Part shown: in pieces, positions 2,345-36,415 of the stretch
Layout of the letters: each line of letters starts with the position of its first letter
Position numbering within the stretch: position 1 is the stretch's first letter
Source of the DNA: Escherichia phage AV109
DNA length: 64,000 nucleotides
Reading direction: 5' to 3' (one strand)
Sequence record: OR352939.1
The notes under the pieces: model-generated
Database searches by the model: none
Told to the model about the DNA's origin: nothing
Seen by the model: only the letters and a program-made list of their open reading frames with translations
Translations under genes and position numbers: made by a program

Positions 2345-4327
2345 ATGGCACTTCTCTCTCCGGGCGTTGAGCTCAAAGAAACTACCGTACAGAGTACTGT
2401 AGTTAATAACTCCACTGGTACTGCTGCCCTGGCTGGAAAATTCCAATGGGGACCTGCATTCCAGATTAAACAAATCACTGATGAAGTTGCATTGGTTGAT
2501 ATGTTTGGTACTCCTAATACGGATACAGCAGATTATTTCATGTCTGCTATGAACTTCCTTCAATATGGTAATGACCTTCGTGTCGTACGCGCAGTTGATC
2601 GTGATACTGCTAAGAACTCATCTCCTGTGGCAGGCAATATTGAATTCACAATCTCTGCTACTGGTAGTAACTATGCGGTTGGTGATAAAATTATCGTTAA
2701 GTATTTGACCGAAACTGTTGAAGCAGATGGTTATGTCACTTCAGTTGATGTCGATGGTAAAATTCTTAACATTTATATCCCAACCGGTAAAATTATTGCT
2801 CGTGCAAAAGAAATTAATGAATATCCGGCATTGGGTTCTAACTGGACCGCCGAAGTTGCCAGTTCTTCTTCTGGACTTTCTGGCGTTATTACAATTGGTT
2901 CTATCGTAACTGATTCGGGTATTCTGTTAACTGAAGTTGAAACTTCTGAAGAAGCTATTACTTCTCTAACTTTCCAAGAATCTATTAAAAAATATGGTGT
3001 CCCAGGCGTAGTTGCTCTTTATCCTGGTGAACTTGGCGACCAGCTCGAAATTGAAATCGTATCTAAAGCAGACTATGACAAAGGTGCTTCAGCCCAGTTA
3101 AAAATTTATCCTGATGGTGGTACTCGTGCATCTACTGCTAAAGCAATCTTTGGGTATGGCCCACAAACTGATGACCAATATGCAATTATCGTTCGTCGTA
3201 ACGATGCTGTAGTTCAGAGCGTAGTTCTTTCTACTAAACGCGGTGAACGAGATATTTATGGTAGTAATATCTTTATTGATGATTTCTTTGCTAAAGGCGC
3301 AAGCAATTATATTTTCGCTACTGCACAAGGTTGGCCAAAAGGTTTCTCTGGCGTAATCAAACTGGGTGGCGGCTTATCATCTAATGAAACTGTTGACGCT
3401 GGTGATTTAATGGAAGCTTGGGATTTGTTTGCTGACCGCGAATCTGTTAATGCGCAGTTGTTTATTGCCGGTTCTTGTGCAGGTGAATCTTTAGAAGTTG
3501 CTTCTACAGTTCAGAAACATGTTGTAGCAATTGGTGATTCTCGCCAAGATTGCTTGGTTCTTTGCTCACCGCCACGTGCAACTATAGTCGGTATTCCTGT
3601 TAATCGTGCAGTTGATAATCTGGTTGATTGGCGTACTGCGTCAGGAACTTACACTGATAATAACTTTAATGTAAGTTCTACTTATGCCGCTATTGACGGT
3701 AACTATAAATATCAATATGACAAATATAATGATGTGAATCGTTGGGTTCCATTAGCTGCTGATATTGCTGGTCTTTGTGCTCGCACAGACAATATTTCTC
3801 AGCCTTGGATGTCTCCTGCCGGTTATAACCGTGGACAAATTCTTAACGTTATTAAGCTTGCAATTGAAACTCGCCAAGCGCAGCGTGATCGTTTGTACCA
3901 GGAAGCTATTAACCCTGTTACTGGTACCGGTGGTGATGGGTATGTTCTGTACGGTGATAAAACTGCCACTTCTGTTCCTTCACCATTTGACCGTATTAAC
4001 GTTCGTCGTTTGTTCAATATGGTTAAAACGAACATTGGTTCAGCATCTAAATATCGCCTGTTTGAATTGAACAACGCATTTACCCGTTCTTCTTTCCGTA
4101 CAGAGACTTCTCAATATCTACAGGGTATTAAAGCTCTCGGTGGTGTATATAACTTTAAAGTTGTTTGTGATACTACCAATAACACACCAGCAGTTATCGA
4201 CCGTAATGAGTTTGTAGCTACTTTCTACTTACAACCTGCAAGATCGATAAATTATATTACGTTGAACTTTGTAGCAACAGCAACGGGTGCCGATTTCGAC
4301 GAACTAATTGGTGCTGTAGGTGCCTAA
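2345..4327 (+). CDS. 18: contractile tail sheath protein (T4 gp18-like)
   Basis: 660 aa, late-gene position after terminase, late promoter and SD upstream. Confidence 0.95.
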   Translation: MALLSPGVELKETTVQSTVVNNSTGTAALAGKFQWGPAFQIKQITDEVALVDMFGTPNTDTADYFMSAMNFLQYGNDLRVVRAVDRDTAKNSSPVAGNIEFTISATGSNYAVGDKIIVKYLTETVEADGYVTSVDVDGKILNIYIPTGKIIARAKEINEYPALGSNWTAEVASSSSGLSGVITIGSIVTDSGILLTEVETSEEAITSLTFQESIKKYGVPGVVALYPGELGDQLEIEIVSKADYDKGASAQLKIYPDGGTRASTAKAIFGYGPQTDDQYAIIVRRNDAVVQSVVLSTKRGERDIYGSNIFIDDFFAKGASNYIFATAQGWPKGFSGVIKLGGGLSSNETVDAGDLMEAWDLFADRESVNAQLFIAGSCAGESLEVASTVQKHVVAIGDSRQDCLVLCSPPRATIVGIPVNRAVDNLVDWRTASGTYTDNNFNVSSTYAAIDGNYKYQYDKYNDVNRWVPLAADIAGLCARTDNISQPWMSPAGYNRGQILNVIKLAIETRQAQRDRLYQEAINPVTGTGGDGYVLYGDKTATSVPSPFDRINVRRLFNMVKTNIGSASKYRLFELNNAFTRSSFRTETSQYLQGIKALGGVYNFKVVCDTTNNTPAVIDRNEFVATFYLQPARSINYITLNFVATATGADFDELIGAVGA

Positions 4328-15528: not shown

Positions 15529-16197
15529 TTATTTTAATGTTACGAAAGAAGAATTACGAGTTTCACGAATTAGAACTGATCCATCGCGATTAATATAATA
15601 AATTAAGCTAAATAATGTTTGGTGAGCAGAAGCGTGCACAAAACTGGTTGGGCGAGATTTCCAATCTGGAGTTTCGGCTATCCATTGATAAATCCACCAA
15701 GGAACAGTAACATATCCCGGGCCTTTGCCTAATTTAATGAGTGTAGGACTAAAATTTTCAGGCAGAACAAATTTTACTTCTTTATTTACCTCTGACTCAG
15801 GCTCTTTTTCAGATTCAACAATCTGAGTAATTGCTTCTTCGAATTTATCGTGGTCGAATTCTTTTTCTTGTTCGACAACTTCTAATACTTCAGCTTGTTC
15901 TGTTGGAGAATCAAACAACAGAATAGCTTCTTCTTTAACTTCTTCGTTGGTGAAATTAACACCGTCCACATCATCTGCGGCAGTAATTAAATCGGTGATA
16001 GATAATCCATCAGTTTCAGGTAATGGTTCATCAGCCAGTGCGTTAAGAGCTTCTTCGATATCAATAACAATATTATCGAATGATTTTGTTTTCTTAACAC
16101 TAATGCCAAATTGTTCCGCATATTCAAACAGTTTAGCTTTGGCTTCCTTTTTATCAGAAAGAGCACGTAACTCTTCAATATAGTCTTTATCGATCAT
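15529..16197 (-). CDS. inh: prohead protease inhibitor Inh-like
   Basis: 222 aa acidic protein between hoc and uvsW, as T4 inh. Confidence 0.65.
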   Translation of the reverse strand: MIDKDYIEELRALSDKKEAKAKLFEYAEQFGISVKKTKSFDNIVIDIEEALNALADEPLPETDGLSITDLITAADDVDGVNFTNEEVKEEAILLFDSPTEQAEVLEVVEQEKEFDHDKFEEAITQIVESEKEPESEVNKEVKFVLPENFSPTLIKLGKGPGYVTVPWWIYQWIAETPDWKSRPTSFVHASAHQTLFSLIYYINRDGSVLIRETRNSSFVTLK

Positions 16198-28850: not shown

Positions 28851-29037
28851 AATCTACAATCGGGAGCAAAGTACGATAAACTTCAAAATTAGGGCCTTTT
28901 TCGTACTTATCAAAATTGTCCATAAAAATATGATAGGAATCGTTATTAGGAAAATCTAATATAATCTGAGAGCAAGAGGTGGAAACATCTCCACCATCTT
29001 TATTAGCGACAATTACTGTTTCTAAATAAGCTTTCAT
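28849..29037 (-). CDS. hypothetical protein (62 aa from ATG; alt.1-like position)
   Basis: ORF track starts at a GTG; the ATG at 29037 overlaps the gene 30 stop as TAATG. Confidence 0.5.
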   Translation of the reverse strand: MKAYLETVIVANKDGGDVSTSCSQIILDFPNNDSYHIFMDNFDKYEKGPNFEVYRTLLPIVD

Positions 29038-30530
29038 TATAAACCTGTCTGGGACCACGGTCCAAATACGTCTTCAAACGAATCCGCTTCTGTTTTATCA
29101 AAACGGAACCCTTTAATAATTGGGAGGAAAATACCTACAGTGCCTTCACGTCCTTTAGAATGAACCCAACCATTGCATTCACAATCAGCAATACGTCCAA
29201 TCAATTTACCTTCACGAGCTTCGGACATTAATCGTTCACGGTCCAAATCATGTCGCTCATCTAAAGGAATAAGAACCTTTACACCATCAACTGTTTTATG
29301 AGTTGTATCTTTAAACCCTGAACCACAATCGGTTGTAATACGACGACAACGTGATACGAGTTCGACACCACCTAATTTGTTAGGGTCTTTAGAGTGTTCA
29401 TAGTATCCTACAACTTCTAAAGCGATATCAATAACTTCTTTAAATTTAATTAGGTTCTTAGAACGTTTGTTTTCCCAATATGAATCACGGTTTTTAAGGA
29501 TAATACCTTCAAGTCCTTGGTCAACATATTTTTTATAAACCACTTTAGCTTCGTCAAGATTACGAACTAACTGATTTTCAATTGGCTCAATTCGCTTAAA
29601 GCCTTCAGCCATATTTTCAAGAGCAGCAAAACGAACATCGTATTTCTGACCTTTAATTTTACCACCAGAATAGACTTCATCTAAAGGAACATAGTCCCAG
29701 GCTTGAAGAACCATACCTTCAGCTTCTTTAGGAGAAATAGTCCCTTGAAGAGATTTATTTGCTAAACCATTTGAAGTGCTACGGTCTGCAACCTGTACTT
29801 CTTCGGATTCTTCATTATCACCAAATAAGAACGACAGGTCATTTCCTGAGCTCACAGCCTTTTTAATATCAAATGAATGATAAACTAATTCACCGTCGAT
29901 TAAAACCCCATTAGGGTGTCTTTCACGAGCTTCTTTAGTCATTTCCATTAATTCATCTGCTAATAGGGTAAGACCATGATATTCGTTGCCGGCACGAGAA
30001 AAGAATTGAACACCATCATCGCGAACTTCAGCGAAACAACGAGCACCATCGGCTTTTAATTGAGCAAATGCAGGCCATTTAATATTTTTAGTAATCAATT
30101 TCTCATCATATGCAGATGCTAACATCTGTGGTTGCAATTGAATAAGTCCGGGCCACACCTTATTCGCGATAGACACTGAAGCACCTACTTCAAGGTCGCG
30201 CATCATTACACGACGAAGGACTTCTACATCATCAGGTTTACCGTCAGCGATATAACCCATGAGCTCTTTAATTGCAGCATTACCAGTGAGTTTACGAGTG
30301 GCTAATGTGAACTCAATAAAATCCAACATGTCATCTAATTCAAGAAGACCATATGCTTGAGACCTTTCACCTGGTCCTGGCCATTTCTTAATATAATACT
30401 GGATACCACGTGCATATGTTAAACGATACACACGTTCAAGTAATTTGTTGTCCTTATTTTTCTTAAGGATTTCCTGTTTTGTTTTAGTAGAACCGATCGC
30501 AGCTATTTGGTTTAAAATATCTAAAATCAT
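29037..30530 (-). CDS. 30: ATP-dependent DNA ligase (T4 gp30-like)
   Basis: 497 aa; adenylation motif KADGAR; position as T4 gene 30. Confidence 0.95.
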   Translation of the reverse strand: MILDILNQIAAIGSTKTKQEILKKNKDNKLLERVYRLTYARGIQYYIKKWPGPGERSQAYGLLELDDMLDFIEFTLATRKLTGNAAIKELMGYIADGKPDDVEVLRRVMMRDLEVGASVSIANKVWPGLIQLQPQMLASAYDEKLITKNIKWPAFAQLKADGARCFAEVRDDGVQFFSRAGNEYHGLTLLADELMEMTKEARERHPNGVLIDGELVYHSFDIKKAVSSGNDLSFLFGDNEESEEVQVADRSTSNGLANKSLQGTISPKEAEGMVLQAWDYVPLDEVYSGGKIKGQKYDVRFAALENMAEGFKRIEPIENQLVRNLDEAKVVYKKYVDQGLEGIILKNRDSYWENKRSKNLIKFKEVIDIALEVVGYYEHSKDPNKLGGVELVSRCRRITTDCGSGFKDTTHKTVDGVKVLIPLDERHDLDRERLMSEAREGKLIGRIADCECNGWVHSKGREGTVGIFLPIIKGFRFDKTEADSFEDVFGPWSQTGL

Positions 30531-30796
30531 TTGATGTCCTCGATTTTGGTTACGGTTCTATTATAAGCCACTTCATCTAGAAGCGATTTCAGCGTTTTCT
30601 GATAAGTTGTAATCCATTTACCGAGTCCTTCAACATAGTATTCTGAAATGTAGATGAACCCTTGTTCAACACACTCTTTAAATATTTCTGCGTCTTTTAC
30701 TGAACGAAACAATGGCCAGTCTCGAAAGAACATGTTAACGTGACCGTAGTCACGTGTGGTATTTTTGCCATCTGTAATATCATGAACTACAAACAT
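30527..30796 (-). CDS. hypothetical protein (30.1-like position)
   Basis: 89-aa ORF, ATGA overlap with gene 30. Confidence 0.55.
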   Translation of the reverse strand: MFVVHDITDGKNTTRDYGHVNMFFRDWPLFRSVKDAEIFKECVEQGFIYISEYYVEGLGKWITTYQKTLKSLLDEVAYNRTVTKIEDIK

Positions 30797-30798
30797 AA

Positions 30799-31635
30799 TT
30801 ATCCCTTAGTTGTGCCGTAACCTTGTGGAACTGCCCAATACGGAGGAACAGGATGTTCGCCTACATTAGTGTATCGCCAATGAGGCTGCATATCGGTTGG
30901 TCCTGGGGTTCGCCAGGTATACGGATTCGACGGAGCGCCAATTTGATTAGGCCATGCGCCTGGACTTGTTGCACCAGATTCTTTAAGCAAATCCGCCAAT
31001 CGTTTTAAAAGGTCTTCACGATCTGAATCTGAATTATTCTTAGGCAGAACCAAACGAGATTCAATATCATCCCACGTGTGTACACGTTGTGCAGTACGAG
31101 GAATGGCATCACGTTCACCACGAGCCAACCAATAAATCGGTACATTAAGAATTTCTGCCGCATGGTCACAATGATGAGCTAAATCGTCAACGTAACAAAT
31201 TACGTTATATTTTGTTTTAGCTAGTTCGAATAATTGTTCCTTTGAAGAATCATGACCACACATCATTACTTCAGAGAAAGCGCCTGGGAACAAAGCATTC
31301 AAATTAAATTGTCTATTCAATCGAGCATCAATTGAATCACCTAGCGCCGTCACGGCTACAAAATTATAGTCTTCTTTTAGTTTATTGATAACTCGAAGAG
31401 CATCAGAATAAGGCGCTAAGTAACGAATAAAATCAGAGCTATTATATTTTTCTATTAATTGTTTACCAAGGTTATCGTCGGTATTGAACAGTTTACCAGG
31501 AGAAATAAATTTTTCGTCCTGAATCATTTTTAAAATATGTTCTAATGGAAGATTATATTTTTGGGCAAAATAAGGAAGTCCAGATTGCCAGCTTAAACAT
31601 ACACCATCAATATCAGTCAAAATAGTAGGCTTCAT
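30799..31635 (-). CDS. HAD-superfamily 5'(3')-deoxyribonucleotidase-like protein with aromatic/Pro-rich C-terminal tail
   Basis: N-terminal ILTDIDGV (HAD motif I), later YVDD; last ~55 aa rich in P/W/Y/G. Confidence 0.6.
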   Translation of the reverse strand: MKPTILTDIDGVCLSWQSGLPYFAQKYNLPLEHILKMIQDEKFISPGKLFNTDDNLGKQLIEKYNSSDFIRYLAPYSDALRVINKLKEDYNFVAVTALGDSIDARLNRQFNLNALFPGAFSEVMMCGHDSSKEQLFELAKTKYNVICYVDDLAHHCDHAAEILNVPIYWLARGERDAIPRTAQRVHTWDDIESRLVLPKNNSDSDREDLLKRLADLLKESGATSPGAWPNQIGAPSNPYTWRTPGPTDMQPHWRYTNVGEHPVPPYWAVPQGYGTTKG

Positions 31636-32090
31636 AAAGAGTCTCTTAATAGGTTTAACACGTCAATAAATTCATCTTCAGTTAGTATTGTATCATCTTT
31701 TGTTAGGTGGCTGGCCATGCTGTGCTTCAAAATTTTTCCTTTAGAGGCTTGTAAGGCATCACGAAACCCCTTGTTTTGGATCGCGGCTTCAAAATATGCA
31801 TTTGTGTATAATTCTTTCCACGCTTCGGAGTATCTTGAAAATGGAACTCCTAACCAGAAGAGAGTCCCATGGTCCTGAGCTCTTGCATAAGACCTTCCAG
31901 CTTGCTGTGCAGCCAGTCCTGACAGCCCAAATATACGTTTTTGTTGTTCAACATTTCTCACCTTACATCCTTGGAGAAATCCTTCAAGACCTCCGAATTG
32001 AATATCGTCCATAACGAAAGGCCACCGGGCAAAATTACTTAATGCACATGACGGCCACTTAAAATTGCTTCTTATTTCTAATTCAGACAT
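31632..32090 (-). CDS. hypothetical protein (30.3-like position)
   Basis: ORF track start is a GTG at 32099; first ATG at 32090; start uncertain. Confidence 0.5.
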   Translation of the reverse strand: MSELEIRSNFKWPSCALSNFARWPFVMDDIQFGGLEGFLQGCKVRNVEQQKRIFGLSGLAAQQAGRSYARAQDHGTLFWLGVPFSRYSEAWKELYTNAYFEAAIQNKGFRDALQASKGKILKHSMASHLTKDDTILTEDEFIDVLNLLRDSL

Positions 32091-32301
32091 CTTTAACACT
32101 TATAATTTCAATATCAGCCCAATGACCGTATCCAGGTATACGGTCTTCGATAGATAAATTTCCGTCATTTTTAGGCATTTTAATTGACGTAACGTATGGT
32201 TCTAGACGGTTTTCTGCATAATACGGAAAAACGTCTGTTACACGATAAGTAACTTCGATCATTTCTGTACCCAACAATTTCTGAATTAATTTCTTTAACA
32301 T
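32083..32301 (-). CDS. hypothetical protein
   Basis: 72-aa ORF with SD-like GAGGATAAT before the ATG. Confidence 0.5.
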   Translation of the reverse strand: MLKKLIQKLLGTEMIEVTYRVTDVFPYYAENRLEPYVTSIKMPKNDGNLSIEDRIPGYGHWADIEIISVKDV

Positions 32302-33317: not shown

Positions 33318-33497
33318 TTATGCAACAACCTTTCCAAAACGAGAAGCATCATCTCGAAGAACTGCACGTGCTCTGCGCATGATCTTCTCAACGGTTTGAT
33401 TAATACGAGAGTTCGACCCACGCTTGTATCCAGCGCGTTTAGAGGTACCATCAACTTTCTTTTCAACTGCTTTCTTTGCTTTAGCTTGTTTTGCCAT
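33318..33497 (-). CDS. small basic protein (59 aa, Lys/Arg/Ala-rich)
   Basis: below ORF-track cutoff; AT-rich third codon positions, unlike the overlapping 61-aa track ORF in another frame; weak SD AAGAG. Confidence 0.4.
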   Translation of the reverse strand: MAKQAKAKKAVEKKVDGTSKRAGYKRGSNSRINQTVEKIMRRARAVLRDDASRFGKVVA

Positions 33498-33660
33498 TAT
33501 AAATTCTCTTTAAATGAAAATGCAGGACTTATTGACATTGCCTGCTCAAGCCCTCAATGGGAACATAGGTTTTGGATATTTAACGACAGGATAACCATAA
33601 ACCCGTCATCATACCTACCATGACTTACACAGCTAACCTTTTGCTGACGCATGATAGCAA

Positions 33661-34423: not shown

Positions 34424-34720
34424 TTACATAAGAAGCAAACGTTCTACCGGAGTACCATCAACCGAAATTACTTTATCAAGGCGGAAAGAACGCCACTGAC
34501 CTAACTCGGTATCGAATGCTCGAACTGATTCACGAGGTTCAGAACGAACTTCTGTTGATGGGTTACTATTTTCATATTTGACTTCAAGTTCGTCGCGGGA
34601 AGCAAACATCGTACGAACATCACCGTTAGCCTTTTCAAATACAACACAATGAACGCCTACAGACAGAATAGTTTTAATACATTCACGAAGAACCATAGTT
34701 TCTTGTTCAGTTAAAATCAT
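34424..34720 (-). CDS. hypothetical protein (31.1-like position)
   Basis: ORF track starts at a GTG at 34732; the ATG at 34720 overlaps the cd stop. Confidence 0.5.
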   Translation of the reverse strand: MILTEQETMVLRECIKTILSVGVHCVVFEKANGDVRTMFASRDELEVKYENSNPSTEVRSEPRESVRAFDTELGQWRSFRLDKVISVDGTPVERLLLM

Positions 34721-34721
34721 A

Positions 34722-35303: not shown

Positions 35304-36295
35304 TATTGAACCTTATTAATATAAGTTAACAGCTCTTTAGTTTGTTCCCAACTGATGCACGCATCGGTAATGGAAACGCCATAGGACATATTATCAGAAA
35401 TTTTTTGATTTCCTTCATGTAGGAATGATTCTATCATAATTCCTTTGACCAAATCATTAGCTGCTAAATTTTTACCAATACCAATTTGATTGCTATAATG
35501 CCCATCAGCGTTTGCATGGCTACAGTCAACCATTACATAATGATTCAGACCTACTGCCCTTGCTTTGTTAGAAGCTTCTTGAATATCAGAAGAATGATAG
35601 TTCGGGCCGTTAGTCCCGCCACGCAATACGATATGCGTATTCTGATTACCTTCAGCTTCAACAATGCCTACAGTACCATCGACGTCCATACCCATATACC
35701 GATGAGGCCGCGCGGCACTATACATCGCGTCTGTAGCTACTTTAATAGAACCATTGGTTGCGTTCTTGAAGCCTACGCACATCGGTAGACCTGAAGCAAT
35801 TTCACGATGTGTCTGACTTTCAGTCGTACGGGCGCCAATAGCAACCCATGAGAAAATACCAGAAAGATACTTAATCGTGAATGGGTCTAATACTTCAGTT
35901 GCTAATGGAAGTCCCATACGTAGAAGTTTACGACACAATGTTCGTGCAACTATAAGACCGTGGTTCATATCAAAACTTCCGTCAAGATATGGATCATTTA
36001 CAAGACCTTTCCAACCTACGGTAGTTCGAGGCTTTTCAAAATAAACGCGCATCACTAACAGAACATTAGGAAGACGAGTTTGAAGTTCAGCCAGACGTTT
36101 GCCGTATTCAACAGCAGCAATAGGGTCATGAATTGAACAAGGACCTACAACAATAAGTTTGCGTGGGTCTTCACCGTTCATAATCGAATTAACTTGTTCG
36201 CGATGAGAAGCCACTTGTGATGCGTAAGCTTCCGACAAAGGAATAATCTCAGCCAGTTCTTTTGGAGAAATAAGTTTTCTGACGACAGGTAACAT
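35303..36295 (-). CDS. class I 3-deoxy-D-arabino-heptulosonate-7-phosphate (DAHP) synthase, AroG/AroF/AroH family
   Basis: 330 aa; long stretches identical to recalled E. coli AroG (GPCSIHDP, RVYFEKPRTTVGWKG, AIGARTTESQ, LRGG, SHAN, ESxLxEGNQ, SITDACI); SD AAGGA; stop overlaps the cd start. Confidence 0.92.
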   Translation of the reverse strand: MLPVVRKLISPKELAEIIPLSEAYASQVASHREQVNSIMNGEDPRKLIVVGPCSIHDPIAAVEYGKRLAELQTRLPNVLLVMRVYFEKPRTTVGWKGLVNDPYLDGSFDMNHGLIVARTLCRKLLRMGLPLATEVLDPFTIKYLSGIFSWVAIGARTTESQTHREIASGLPMCVGFKNATNGSIKVATDAMYSAARPHRYMGMDVDGTVGIVEAEGNQNTHIVLRGGTNGPNYHSSDIQEASNKARAVGLNHYVMVDCSHANADGHYSNQIGIGKNLAANDLVKGIMIESFLHEGNQKISDNMSYGVSITDACISWEQTKELLTYINKVQ

Positions 36296-36415
36296 AACAA
36301 TCCTTAGGAGATATAAACAGATTCTGATTCAACAATACCTTTAACCGGATTAGACAGGCTAAGTTGGTAGTGCTCAGATTTATGACCATTCTCGATAGTA
36401 ATGAGATAGCTCTCA

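What the first reader, a model, noticed from the sequence alone, without database searches (positions are those of the whole stretch)
30799..30970. HAD-type nucleotidase-like protein with a Trp/Tyr/Pro-rich C-terminal tail
The 278-aa protein begins with a HAD motif I (ILTDIDGV) and has a YVDD motif, consistent with a 5'(3')-deoxyribonucleotidase fold, but ends in a ~55-residue low-complexity tail (..PGAWPNQIGAPSNPYTWRTPGPTDMQPHWRYTNVGEHPVPPYWAVPQGYGTTKG) with repeated aromatic-Pro motifs. Such tails are unusual on metabolic enzymes and might mediate binding to another protein or to the cell envelope.
Basis: partly seen in the sequence, partly recalled or inferred. Interest (0 to 1): 0.4.

Follow-up and report, generated by a model that had tools for sequence, protein, structure and literature searches.

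The report
Phage phosphatase with a floppy tail
This is the T4 gene 30.2 counterpart in an RB69-like E. coli phage: an ordinary-looking, probably nucleotide-specific phosphatase that carries a floppy proline/tryptophan-rich tail, which is real and weakly conserved but whose job (probably docking to a partner protein) is untested.

Summary
ORF 30799..31635 (-) encodes a 278-aa protein 100% identical to a hypothetical protein of Escherichia phage AV114 (Mosigvirus). It is the orthologue of T4 gene 30.2 and lies between 30.3 and 30.1/DNA ligase.

**Core (residues 1-195).** This is a confidently predicted HAD phosphatase with a helical C1 cap. All four catalytic motifs are invariant in the family. 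The nearest relatives by fold, and by stepwise profile searches through more distant relatives, are 5'(3')-deoxyribonucleotidases. It does not pass the Pfam NT5C threshold.

**C-terminal extension (residues 196-278).** It consists of a helix (203-221) followed by a 57-residue region predicted to be disordered.
- The extension is specific to one clade. About 55 of 100 close representatives have such a tail, while nearly all remote relatives are tail-less proteins of about 200 aa.
- It carries two conserved islands (WRTPG, TDMQPHW).
- It is under purifying selection 5-10 times weaker than the core.
- Its last 27 residues are a minority allele shared with a handful of other Mosigviruses.

**Likely role.** The best reading is a flexible tether carrying short docking motifs. 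The partner is unknown. The downstream protein gp30.1 is a weak candidate. A role in envelope binding is unlikely. No literature on this gene was found. Interest is modest.

The parts
30799..31635 (-). Complete CDS (278 aa plus stop): orthologue of T4 gene 30.2
   Evidence: ORF list. 100% tblastn match to Escherichia phage AV114 WPK34939.1, and 1438 phage records hold a match. RB69, PhAPEC2 and JS09 records label the orthologue 30.2. PHROG 420, unknown function, E 2.7e-77.
31051..31635 (-). HAD phosphatase core with helical C1 cap (residues 1-195)
   Evidence: AF2 pLDDT above 90. Foldseek matches PDB HAD hydrolases including 2jao, 2i7d, 1q92 and 3bwv. Helices at residues 16-86 sit between strand 1 and the next core strand.
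31600..31614 (-). HAD motif I, DIDGV (D8 nucleophile, D10 acid/base)
   Evidence: D8 and D10 are invariant in 94 homologues and in 72 remote relatives. Coordinates.
31339..31359 (-). HAD motif II region, VAVTALG (T96)
   Evidence: T96 is nearly invariant and A97 invariant. Coordinates.
31234..31248 (-). HAD motif III region, SSKEQ (K132)
   Evidence: K132 is invariant. Coordinates.
31183..31194 (-). HAD motif IV, YVDD (D150, D151)
   Evidence: D150 and D151 are at least 90% conserved in A1 and invariant in A3. Coordinates.
30973..31029 (-). Amphipathic helix of the C-terminal extension (residues 203-221)
   Evidence: AF2 predicts helix 203-221, with mean pLDDT 75 for residues 201-210 and 93 for 211-220. 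The Klebsiella-type homologue has the equivalent helix 194-223.
30802..30972 (-).
   Evidence: pLDDT about 47-58. Composition. Purifying selection is weaker than in the core.
30901..30915 (-). Conserved tail island M1, WRTPG (residues 241-245)
   Evidence: The pattern W[RKVT][TSNA][PTQ][GD] occurs in 15 of 55 long tails, against a mean of 0.2 in shuffles. W241 is at least 90% conserved in the tail alignment.
30877..30894 (-). Conserved tail island M2, DMQPHW (residues 248-253)
   Evidence: A loose pattern occurs in 19 of 55 tails against 0.6 in shuffles. The strict pattern D[LM][KRQ][PA][WYH][YW] occurs in 7 of 55 against 0. Pro251 is at least 90% conserved.
30802..30882 (-). Minority-allele tail tip (HWRYTNVGEHPVPPYWAVPQGYGTTKG, residues 252-278)
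   Evidence: This is a clean non-homologous replacement of about 75 nt relative to AV112, between near-identical flanks. It is shared with HX01, ESCO47, DCP548 and 308Ecol101PP only. All 8 other Mosigviruses fetched end in WWTIQNFPLDSSKWTWS(I/T)NC, as does the 238-member cluster P0001.
30527..30796 (-). Downstream gene 30.1 (DUF3045, 89 aa); its start lies 2 nt after the 30.2 stop
   Evidence: Pfam DUF3045 E 1.4e-26. The sequence reads TAA-TT-ATG. A 30.1-type gene accompanies every P/W-rich tail in the locus survey.
31632..32099 (-). Upstream gene 30.3 (PF08010); its stop overlaps the 30.2 start codon
   Evidence: Pfam Phage_30_3 E 1.2e-66. ORF coordinates.
29037..30530 (-). DNA ligase (gene 30), the conserved downstream neighbour of the 30.2/30.1 pair
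   Evidence: Pfam DNA_ligase_A_M E 6.7e-26. The synteny holds in nearly all surveyed loci.

Best explanation
The ORF is the Mosigvirus orthologue of T4 gene 30.2.

**Shown**
- It encodes a protein with no signal peptide, so it is presumably cytoplasmic. Residues 1-195 form a HAD-superfamily phosphatase with a helical C1 cap. All four catalytic motifs are intact: D8/D10, T96, K132, D150/D151.
- Residues 196-278 are an extension specific to one clade of phages of enteric bacteria. It consists of an amphipathic helix (203-221) followed by a 57-residue Pro/Trp/Tyr-rich segment predicted to be disordered.
- The disordered segment carries two short conserved islands, WRTPG (241-245) and TDMQPHW (247-253).
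- The extension evolves under purifying selection 5-10 times weaker than the core. Its last 27 residues are a minority allele.

**Inferred**
- The capped architecture and the nearest relatives (5'(3')-deoxyribonucleotidases) suggest a small phosphorylated metabolite as substrate, probably a (deoxy)nucleoside monophosphate.
- The tail is not part of the catalytic machinery, because most of the wider family works without it. It most likely acts as a flexible tether whose short linear motifs dock the enzyme to a partner protein.
- The partner is unknown. The product of the translationally coupled downstream gene 30.1 (DUF3045) is a candidate supported only by weak evidence.
For: **Identity and context**
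- Searches give the ORF, the 100% match to AV114 and the annotated neighbours. Searches give the 30.2 labels in other Mosigvirus records.

**HAD fold**
- AF2 gives pLDDT above 90 for residues 1-195.
- Foldseek against PDB finds HAD hydrolases at E 5e-8 to 1e-6. These include deoxyribonucleotidases 2jao, 2i7d, 1q92 and 3bwv, with target-normalised TM-score 0.60-0.69.
- Catalytic residues are invariant in 94 homologues and in 72 remote relatives.

**Nucleotidase affinity**
- phmmer aligns DGVCLSWQSGL with DGVLADFESGL of mouse dNT-1, and also aligns the cap region, at a weak E of 0.11.
- 16 of 94 close members give sub-threshold Pfam NT5C hits.
- 30 of 72 remote members hit NT5C, best E 4e-10.
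- The remote-member profile matches PDB 3bwv over its full length at E 3e-5.

**Tail is disordered**
- pLDDT is about 50 in the query and below 60 in the Klebsiella-type homologue, even across its conserved motifs.

**Tail is translated and constrained**
- Within-genus dN/dS for the tail is 0.08-0.24, against 0.02-0.04 for the core.
- Segregating sites in the tail show a synonymous excess, with P from 2e-4 to 2e-9.

**Conserved motifs**
- Tail classes that cannot be aligned to each other share the same bias. Median Pro is 13.6% and median Trp 4.9%, against 4.2% and 1.3% in cores.

**Tail is dispensable for the fold**
- About 40 of 100 close representatives lack it.
- Nearly all of the listed remote representatives are 190-215 aa, out of 1035 with E up to 1e-3.

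**Link to gp30.1**
- The stop and start are 2 nt apart.
- All 31 P/W-rich tails in 79 surveyed loci have a 30.1-type gene downstream.
- One metagenomic sequence fuses a tail-less core to DUF3045 (Pfam E 8e-15).
- The Yersinia phiR1-RT type carries a C-terminal domain that resembles the 30.1 profile (hhalign probability 68%, E 4.7e-5).
Against: **No activity or binding data**
- None exists, and the literature searches found nothing on this gene.

**Weak sequence-level support for the enzyme class**
- The query's best Pfam hit is HAD_2 at E 0.014, below the gathering score.
- The close-family profile reaches only E 0.45 against 2jao.

**Limits of the motif evidence**
- The tail motifs were defined after looking at these same sequences, and the sequences are related. 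The shuffle controls therefore overstate significance.
- A profile of the tails finds no other protein class carrying this module.

**Limits of the gp30.1 evidence**
- Tail and 30.1 are adjacent, and both appear once at the base of a single clade. A single insertion could explain their joint origin, and a single deletion their one joint loss.
- Eight loci keep 30.1 without a tail.
- The clear fusion comes from one 1.4-kb metagenome contig.
- All 59 gp30.1 homologues retrieved are stand-alone proteins of 44-96 aa.
- gp30.1 is essentially invariant between the two tail-tip alleles.
Confidence: 0.6

Rival explanations
1. The tail is a tolerated but largely functionless extension. It would have arisen through recombination and stop-codon movement at the 30.2/30.1 gene junction. 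Its composition and weak conservation would then reflect mild constraints only, such as solubility, avoiding interference with the enzyme, or keeping the ribosome-binding site of 30.1.
For: - Presence or absence varies among close relatives: cores 70-78% identical to the query have no tail.
- The last 27 residues were swapped for an unrelated sequence within a roughly 96%-identical genus.
- Tails of different genera cannot be aligned, and dN/dS between RB69 and T4 tails is 0.81.
- The final codons overlap the Shine-Dalgarno sequence of 30.1.
- AF2 sees no structure in the tail.
Against: - Within each genus the tail shows a clear synonymous excess, with omega 0.10-0.24 and P from 2e-4 to 2e-9.
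- The WRTPG and D-L/M-K/R/Q-P/A-aromatic islands persist between phages whose cores are only 45-50% identical.
- Unrelated tail classes converge on the same Pro/Trp-rich composition.
- Reading frames stay open for 60-135 residues in dozens of lineages.
Confidence: 0.2
2. The tail regulates the enzyme itself. Its aromatic residues would fold back onto the cap or active-site cleft, mimicking stacked nucleobases. This would gate the nucleotidase until some signal releases it, so that the phage's own dNMP pool is not drained.
For: - dNT-type enzymes bind the base between aromatic cap residues (established knowledge). The family has invariant aromatic cap residues W16, F43 and Y64.
- An unregulated dNMP phosphatase would be costly for a phage that recycles host dNMPs (inference).
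Against: - AF2 places the tail with pLDDT of only about 50 in two different homologues, with about 90 sequences in each alignment. No co-evolving intramolecular contact is therefore detected.
- Tail-less family members exist in many phages that have the same nucleotide economy.
Confidence: 0.08
3. The core is not a nucleotidase but a polynucleotide 3'-phosphatase. It would heal DNA ends for the adjacent DNA ligase, and the aromatic tail would help bind single-stranded DNA.
For: - 30.2 lies immediately upstream of the ligase gene, or upstream of 30.1 plus ligase, in nearly every surveyed locus. In tail-less phages the stop often overlaps the ligase start.
- HAD phosphatases of the PNKP type do this job in T4 PseT (established knowledge).
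- PNKP-type phage proteins appear among the weaker structural matches in BFVD.
Against: - The protein has a large helical C1 cap between motif I and the next core strand. From established knowledge of HAD cap types, capped HADs act on small molecules, while enzymes acting on macromolecules are capless.
- The best structural and profile matches are dNT-type nucleotidases, not PNKP.
- Gene order is broadly conserved in T4-like phages anyway, so the synteny carries little weight.
Confidence: 0.07
4. The tail anchors the enzyme to the cell envelope or membrane.
For: Trp and Tyr favour membrane interfaces (general knowledge).
Against: - There is no signal peptide, because the catalytic Asp is residue 8.
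- The 57-residue tail has no Leu, one Ile and three Val. It has only 3 basic and 2 acidic residues, and no amphipathic helix is predicted in it.
Confidence: 0.04

Closest known systems
T4 gp30.2 and its orthologues in Straboviridae (PHROG 420)
   Same: - Same gene in the same position (30.3 - 30.2 - 30.1 - ligase).
- The T4-like protein is about 75% identical over residues 1-245.
- T4-like tails share the WRTPG island and the Pro/aromatic bias.
   Different: - After WRTPG the T4 tail is not alignable with this one. It carries an extra GVEYLYNRPT...GDNIFQGAF end that Mosigvirus lacks.
- AV114 additionally carries a minority tip allele.
- No function is published for any member, as far as the searches could reach.
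Cytosolic and mitochondrial 5'(3')-deoxyribonucleotidases (NT5C/NT5M, Pfam PF06941; PDB 2jao, 2i7d, 1q92) and the bacterial homologue 3bwv
   Same: - HAD Rossmann-like core with a helical C1 cap.
- DxDGV motif I followed by an aromatic residue and an SGL turn.
- Remote 30.2-family members score on the NT5C model and on 3bwv.
   Different: - Only 14-18% identity and target-normalised TM-score 0.6-0.69.
- The query does not reach the Pfam NT5C or HAD_2 thresholds.
- These matched chains are 167-201 residues long, so they have no counterpart of the 83-residue extension.
- Substrate not tested.
Phage T5 Dmp (deoxynucleoside-5'-monophosphatase)
   Same: It is a phage-encoded dNMP phosphatase (record annotation) with a DxDGT motif I. 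It is a possible functional analogue.
   Different: No detectable relationship beyond motif I: hhalign probability 1.9%. It also has no Pfam hit.
T4 PseT / PNKP-type HAD 3'-phosphatase domains
   Same: HAD catalytic motifs. Encoded by the same kind of phage. A PNKP-type gene lies a few genes upstream in a related phage.
   Different: - PNKP-type domains are capless and act on nucleic-acid ends (established knowledge), whereas 30.2 has a C1 cap.
- They appear only as weaker structural matches.

Membership tests
HAD (haloacid dehalogenase-like) phosphatase superfamily | Motif I DxDx(T/V) at the end of strand 1 | tested here: met
   D8-I-D10-G-V. D8 and D10 are invariant in 94 close and 72 remote homologues.
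HAD (haloacid dehalogenase-like) phosphatase superfamily | Motif II Ser/Thr, motif III Lys/Arg, motif IV acidic pair | tested here: met
   T96 is at least 90% conserved, K132 is invariant, and D150/D151 are at least 90% conserved to invariant.
HAD (haloacid dehalogenase-like) phosphatase superfamily | Rossmann-like alpha/beta core fold | tested here: met
   The AF2 model has pLDDT above 90. 77 PDB matches at E up to 1e-3, and the 50 listed are HAD-fold proteins, including a few engineered enzymes.
HAD (haloacid dehalogenase-like) phosphatase superfamily | Score above the curated Pfam threshold for a HAD model | tested here: not met
   HAD_2 scores 15.9 bits against a gathering score of 23.8. 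Family members give only sub-threshold hits.
5'(3')-deoxyribonucleotidase family (NT5C, PF06941) | Score above the Pfam NT5C threshold | tested here: not met
   The query has no NT5C hit. 16 of 94 close members (best E 0.002) and 30 of 72 remote members (best E 4.2e-10) match.
5'(3')-deoxyribonucleotidase family (NT5C, PF06941) | C1 helical cap inserted after motif I, with aromatic residues that stack the base | tested here: inconclusive
   The cap helices at residues 16-86 are present. W16 and F43 align with the Phe of ADFESG and with RRGF of mouse dNT-1, but in an alignment with E of only 0.11. The roles of those residues are recalled from the literature and were not checked here.
5'(3')-deoxyribonucleotidase family (NT5C, PF06941) | Structural similarity to solved members | tested here: met
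   2jao, 2i7d, 1q92, 4l6a and 3bwv match at E 1e-7 to 8e-6, with target-normalised TM-score 0.60-0.69. Generic HAD hydrolases score equally well, so this does not separate NT5C from other capped HADs.
5'(3')-deoxyribonucleotidase family (NT5C, PF06941) | Hydrolysis of dNMPs | not testable with these tools
   This needs an enzyme assay.
T4 gp30.2 orthologue group | Sequence similarity plus position between 30.3 (PF08010) and 30.1 (DUF3045)/ligase | tested here: met
   About 75% identity to T4-like proteins. Neighbouring Pfam hits. The same arrangement is seen in RB69, PhAPEC2 and JS09 records labelled 30.2.
T5 Dmp-type dNMP phosphatase | Detectable homology to T5 Dmp | tested here: not met
   hhalign probability 1.9% over 36 columns around motif I only.

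The most novel reading that the evidence does not exclude
The disordered Pro/Trp-rich tail would be a docking module that couples the gp30.2 phosphatase to the small, co-translated protein gp30.1 (DUF3045). In a few lineages the same coupling would have been made permanent by gene fusion. The result would be a two-protein unit in which the partner controls when or on what the nucleotidase acts. One example would be removing particular host-derived or modified dNMPs during host-DNA breakdown. Such dNMPs are now reported to trigger a bacterial defence (bioRxiv 10.64898/2026.01.15.699771). That paper does not mention gene 30.2, so the connection is my speculation.
Probability: 0.12. Interest if true: 0.55.

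Novelty: new member of a known kind. Interest (0 to 1): 0.3.

Why it matters
Gene 30.2 is present in well over a thousand T4-like phage genomes, yet I found no published function for it.

**Why the enzyme is worth assaying.** This work pins the gene down as an intact, capped HAD phosphatase nearest to deoxyribonucleotidases. That gives a concrete assay to run. A dNMP phosphatase in a phage that otherwise hoards dNMPs would be metabolically odd.

**Why the tail is worth a look.** It is a clean natural example of an enzyme gaining, remodelling and losing a disordered, motif-bearing appendage over short evolutionary distances. If its partner were found, that could reveal how the enzyme is localised or restrained.

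**Caveat.** As it stands the finding is an annotation refinement plus an untested docking hypothesis. It is not a new kind of system.

Tried and rejected
1. **Frameshift as the cause of the AV114 tail tip.** Rejected. The DNA alignment with AV112 shows a clean replacement of about 75 nt between near-identical flanks, and no alternative frame of AV112 encodes the AV114 tip.
2. **Donor of the tip allele.** blastn (distant mode) and tblastn in the phage collection found it only in five other Mosigvirus genomes (ESCO47, DCP548, HX01 in two records, 308Ecol101PP). No outside donor turned up.
3. **Tail module on other proteins.** A profile of 20 tails against 5.8 billion proteins returned only one 65-aa fragment, which is itself a 30.2 tail.
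4. **Similar tails or motifs elsewhere in the window.** None found.
5. **Tail docking on the core.** Two AF2 runs, one on the query and one on a Klebsiella-type homologue with the full motif set, both leave the tail at low confidence.
6. **Homology to T5 Dmp.** None beyond motif I.
7. **Direct sequence matches to PDB.** The query and the close-family profile give only E 0.11 and 0.45. A profile of remote relatives was needed to reach significance.
8. **Co-variation of gp30.1 with the tail-tip allele.** None. gp30.1 is essentially invariant.
9. **More 30.2-30.1 fusions.** A gp30.1 profile search found only stand-alone proteins of 44-96 aa. The clear fusion, P0018, rests on a single 1.4-kb contig.
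10. **Solved structures for gp30.1 and gp30.3.** None found by sequence.
11. **Promoter and terminator scan of 30400-32200.** Counts were at chance level.
12. **Literature.** Searches for gp30.2, 'gene 30.2', DUF3045 and combinations of 30.x gene names found nothing relevant. One preprint on dNMP-sensing defence does not mention this gene.
Full report
**1. What is at the coordinates**

- The minus-strand ORF 30799..31635 encodes 278 aa. The range 30799-30970 covers its stop codon and roughly its last 56 codons.
- The protein is 100% identical to a 'hypothetical protein' of Escherichia phage AV114 (Mosigvirus, Straboviridae). The window is co-linear with that record.
- The neighbours fix its identity.
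  - Upstream is a PF08010 'Phage_30_3' protein whose stop overlaps the start codon.
  - Downstream is a DUF3045 protein (T4 30.1) starting 2 nt after the stop, followed by DNA ligase.
  - Orthologues in RB69, PhAPEC2 and JS09 are labelled 30.2.
- The ORF is therefore the orthologue of T4 gene 30.2 (PHROG 420, function unknown).
- tblastn finds a match in 1438 phage records, mostly T4-like phages of Escherichia, Klebsiella, Shigella, Aeromonas, Acinetobacter and Vibrio.

**2.

- ILTDIDGV and YVDD are present.
- The last 55 residues are 20% Pro, 7.3% Trp, 7.3% Tyr, 12.7% Gly and 10.9% Thr. The core has 4.1% Pro and 1.5% Trp.
- Across all six frames of the window, only this stretch and one other (15649-15768, in the ORF 15529..16197) reach the same Pro/Trp/aromatic density.

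**3. The N-terminal domain**

- Sequence evidence for the query alone is weak.
  - Pfam HAD_2 gives E 0.014, below threshold.
  - Mouse 5'(3')-deoxyribonucleotidase 2jao gives E 0.11.
  - The close-family profile gives E 0.45.
- Structure settles the fold.
  - AF2 with a 94-sequence alignment gives pLDDT above 90 for residues 1-195. The layout is beta-alpha with helices 16-86 inserted right after strand 1, which is a C1 cap.
  - Foldseek against PDB returns HAD hydrolases at E 5e-8 and weaker. These include deoxyribonucleotidases 2jao, 2i7d, 1q92, 4l6a and 3bwv, with target-normalised TM-score 0.60-0.69.
  - Generic capped HADs score just as well.
- The catalytic residues D8, D10, T96, K132, D150 and D151 are invariant or nearly so. 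The enzyme is presumably active.
- An exhaustive profile search shows a wider family.
  - There are 1035 cluster representatives, almost all 190-215 aa.
  - Among 72 remote members, 30 hit Pfam NT5C (best E 4.2e-10).
  - Their profile matches the putative deoxyribonucleotidase 3bwv over its full length at E 3e-5. Weaker matches go to the yeast nucleotide phosphatase SSM1 and to an XMP phosphatase.
- From established knowledge of HAD cap types, capped HADs act on small molecules. A (deoxy)nucleotide substrate is therefore the best guess, but it is an inference.
- T5 Dmp, the classic phage dNMP phosphatase, is unrelated beyond motif I.

**4. The tail**

*Architecture*
- Tail-less homologues end at about residue 196-205. 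The real extension is therefore residues 196-278: a helix at 203-221 (mean pLDDT 75 for residues 201-210 and 93 for 211-220) and then 57 residues at pLDDT about 50.
- A Klebsiella-type homologue with a longer tail gives the same picture. This includes low confidence over its best conserved motif.

*Distribution*
- Of 100 close representatives, 55 have Pro/aromatic-rich tails of 40-135 residues, about 40 have none, and a few carry other C-terminal domains.

*Sequence classes and conserved islands*
- Tails fall into several classes that cannot be aligned to each other, but all are Pro/Trp-rich. Median Pro is 13.6% and median Trp 4.9%.
- In the class that includes Mosigvirus, T4 and Klebsiella phages, an alignment shows anchor positions.
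  - The Trp of WRTPG is at least 90% conserved.
  - The Pro of the D-L/M-K/R/Q-P-aromatic-aromatic island is at least 90% conserved.
  - Many genera, but not Mosigvirus, also have G-T-G-I-E-Y-L-x-x-Q-P-T.
- Variants of the second island, such as DLRAYY, SLRATF and LKAYY, recur at or near the C-terminus of other tail classes.
- These patterns were defined after looking at the sequences, which are related to each other. The shuffle controls are only indicative.

*Selection*
- Within Mosigvirus, T4-like and a third E. coli-phage group, tail dN/dS is 0.15, 0.24 and 0.08. The corresponding core values are 0.03, 0.02 and 0.04.
- Counting each segregating site once, the tail still shows a synonymous excess, with P of 2e-4, 3e-5 and 2e-9.
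- Between genera the tail is saturated.
- The tail is therefore translated and constrained, but loosely.

*The tip allele*
- The last 27 residues of AV114 (HWRYTNVGEHPVPPYWAVPQGYGTTKG) replace the WWTIQNFPLDSSKWTWS(I/T)NC ending found in all 8 other Mosigviruses fetched and in the 238-member cluster P0001.
- The change is a clean swap of about 75 nt, not a frameshift.
- The AV114 allele occurs in only five other Mosigvirus genomes in the phage collection.

**5. What the tail might do**

- Conserved short motifs inside predicted disorder, loose purifying selection and frequent loss are typical of a flexible tether with docking motifs. They are not typical of part of the catalytic machinery.
- Export or envelope anchoring is unlikely. 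The catalytic Asp is residue 8, so there is no signal peptide, and the tail has almost no aliphatic residues.
- I looked for a partner in the genomic context.
  - In 79 loci, every P/W-rich tail (31 of 31) is followed by a 30.1-type gene. Eight loci have 30.1 without a tail, and 38 have neither.
  - A core tree shows that tail and 30.1 appear together at the base of one clade of phages of enteric bacteria. There is one joint loss and one or two tail-only losses.
  - The two features are adjacent, so single insertion or deletion events could explain this pattern. The association is weak evidence.
- Two observations point to a functional link between 30.2 and 30.1.
  - One is a fusion of a tail-less core to DUF3045. 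It comes from a single 1.4-kb metagenome contig.
  - The other is the C-terminal domain of the Yersinia phiR1-RT-type protein. It resembles the 30.1 profile (hhalign probability 68%), and in one such phage it replaces a separate 30.1 gene.
- Three results count against the link.
  - A gp30.1 profile search finds only stand-alone small proteins.
  - gp30.1 does not vary with the tail-tip allele.
  - The tail module is not found on any other protein.
- I therefore rate 'docks to some partner' as the most likely role, and 'the partner is gp30.1' at roughly one in five to one in eight.

**6. Comparison with what is known, and verdict**

- Some public records already call orthologues 'HAD-like', 'putative phosphatase' or '5'-3' deoxyribonucleotidase'. 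The enzyme assignment is therefore not new.
- I found no paper on gene 30.2, gp30.1 or the tail.
- The finding is a real and slightly unusual feature on an otherwise ordinary phage enzyme of unknown physiological role. It is a new member of a known kind, with modest interest.
- The useful products are three: a specific assay to run, defined motif residues to mutate, and a candidate partner to test.

Noticed in passing
window 30802-30882 (-): The last 27 codons of gene 30.2 exist as two unrelated alleles within a genus that is otherwise about 96% identical here. The boundaries are sharp: ...GATATGCAGCC on one side and TAAGGG on the other. No donor for the AV114-type allele was found outside Mosigvirus.
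   Followed up: yes
loci L021, L022, L059, L065-L071, L079, L082-L084, L086, L089, L093, L095, L096 (gene 30.2 stop versus ligase start): In tail-less phages that lack 30.1, the HAD gene ends 0-30 nt before the DNA ligase start, or overlaps it. The phosphatase-ligase adjacency is therefore older than the tail and 30.1. Whether this reflects a functional pairing or only conserved gene order was not resolved.
   Followed up: partly
proteins P0028, P0031, P0033-P0035, P0037, P0044, P0047, P0052 (C-termini): A separate tail class ends in ...LLNK(V/A)(T/S/A)ANDS(D/N).. This loosely recalls the AANDENY part of the bacterial ssrA degradation tag that the adaptor SspB reads. The resemblance is recalled from memory and was not tested.
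   Followed up: no
proteins P0065, P0067; loci L063 and L099 (about 2501-3439): Yersinia phiR1-RT-type phages replace the Pro/Trp tail with a folded-looking domain of about 110 residues. It weakly resembles gp30.1 (hhalign probability 68%). L099 then has no separate 30.1 gene, while L063 still has a small 30.1-like ORF.
   Followed up: partly
proteins P0081, P0103, P0146, P0157, P0195: Rare family members carry other additions. Examples are a Cys-rich C-terminus (P0081), C-terminal extensions of about 150-230 residues (P0103, P0146) and large N-terminal domains of 380-500 residues (P0157, P0195). None had a confident Pfam match among those scanned.
   Followed up: partly
window 31632-32099 (-) and 30527-30796 (-): Genes 30.3, 30.2 and 30.1 are tightly packed. 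The 30.3 stop overlaps the 30.2 start, and the 30.2 stop lies 2 nt before the 30.1 start, which suggests translational coupling. Neither gp30.3 nor gp30.1 has a solved relative detectable by sequence.
   Followed up: partly
locus L001 (AV114 record 33319-33498, 34425-34721, 35304-36296): Several product names in the AV114 GenBank record look implausible for their size or position. Examples are a 59-aa '1,4-alpha-glucan branching enzyme', a 98-aa 'tail fibers protein' next to dCMP deaminase, and a 'DAHP synthase'. They are probably annotation-transfer errors.
   Followed up: no
window 15649-15768 (-): This is the only other Trp/Pro-dense stretch in the window (VLPENFSPTLIKLGKGPGYVTVPWWIYQWIAETPDWKSRP). 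It lies in the 222-aa ORF 15529..16197, upstream of a 376-aa ORF that looks like the head decoration protein Hoc. It shares none of the 30.2 tail motifs.
   Followed up: partly
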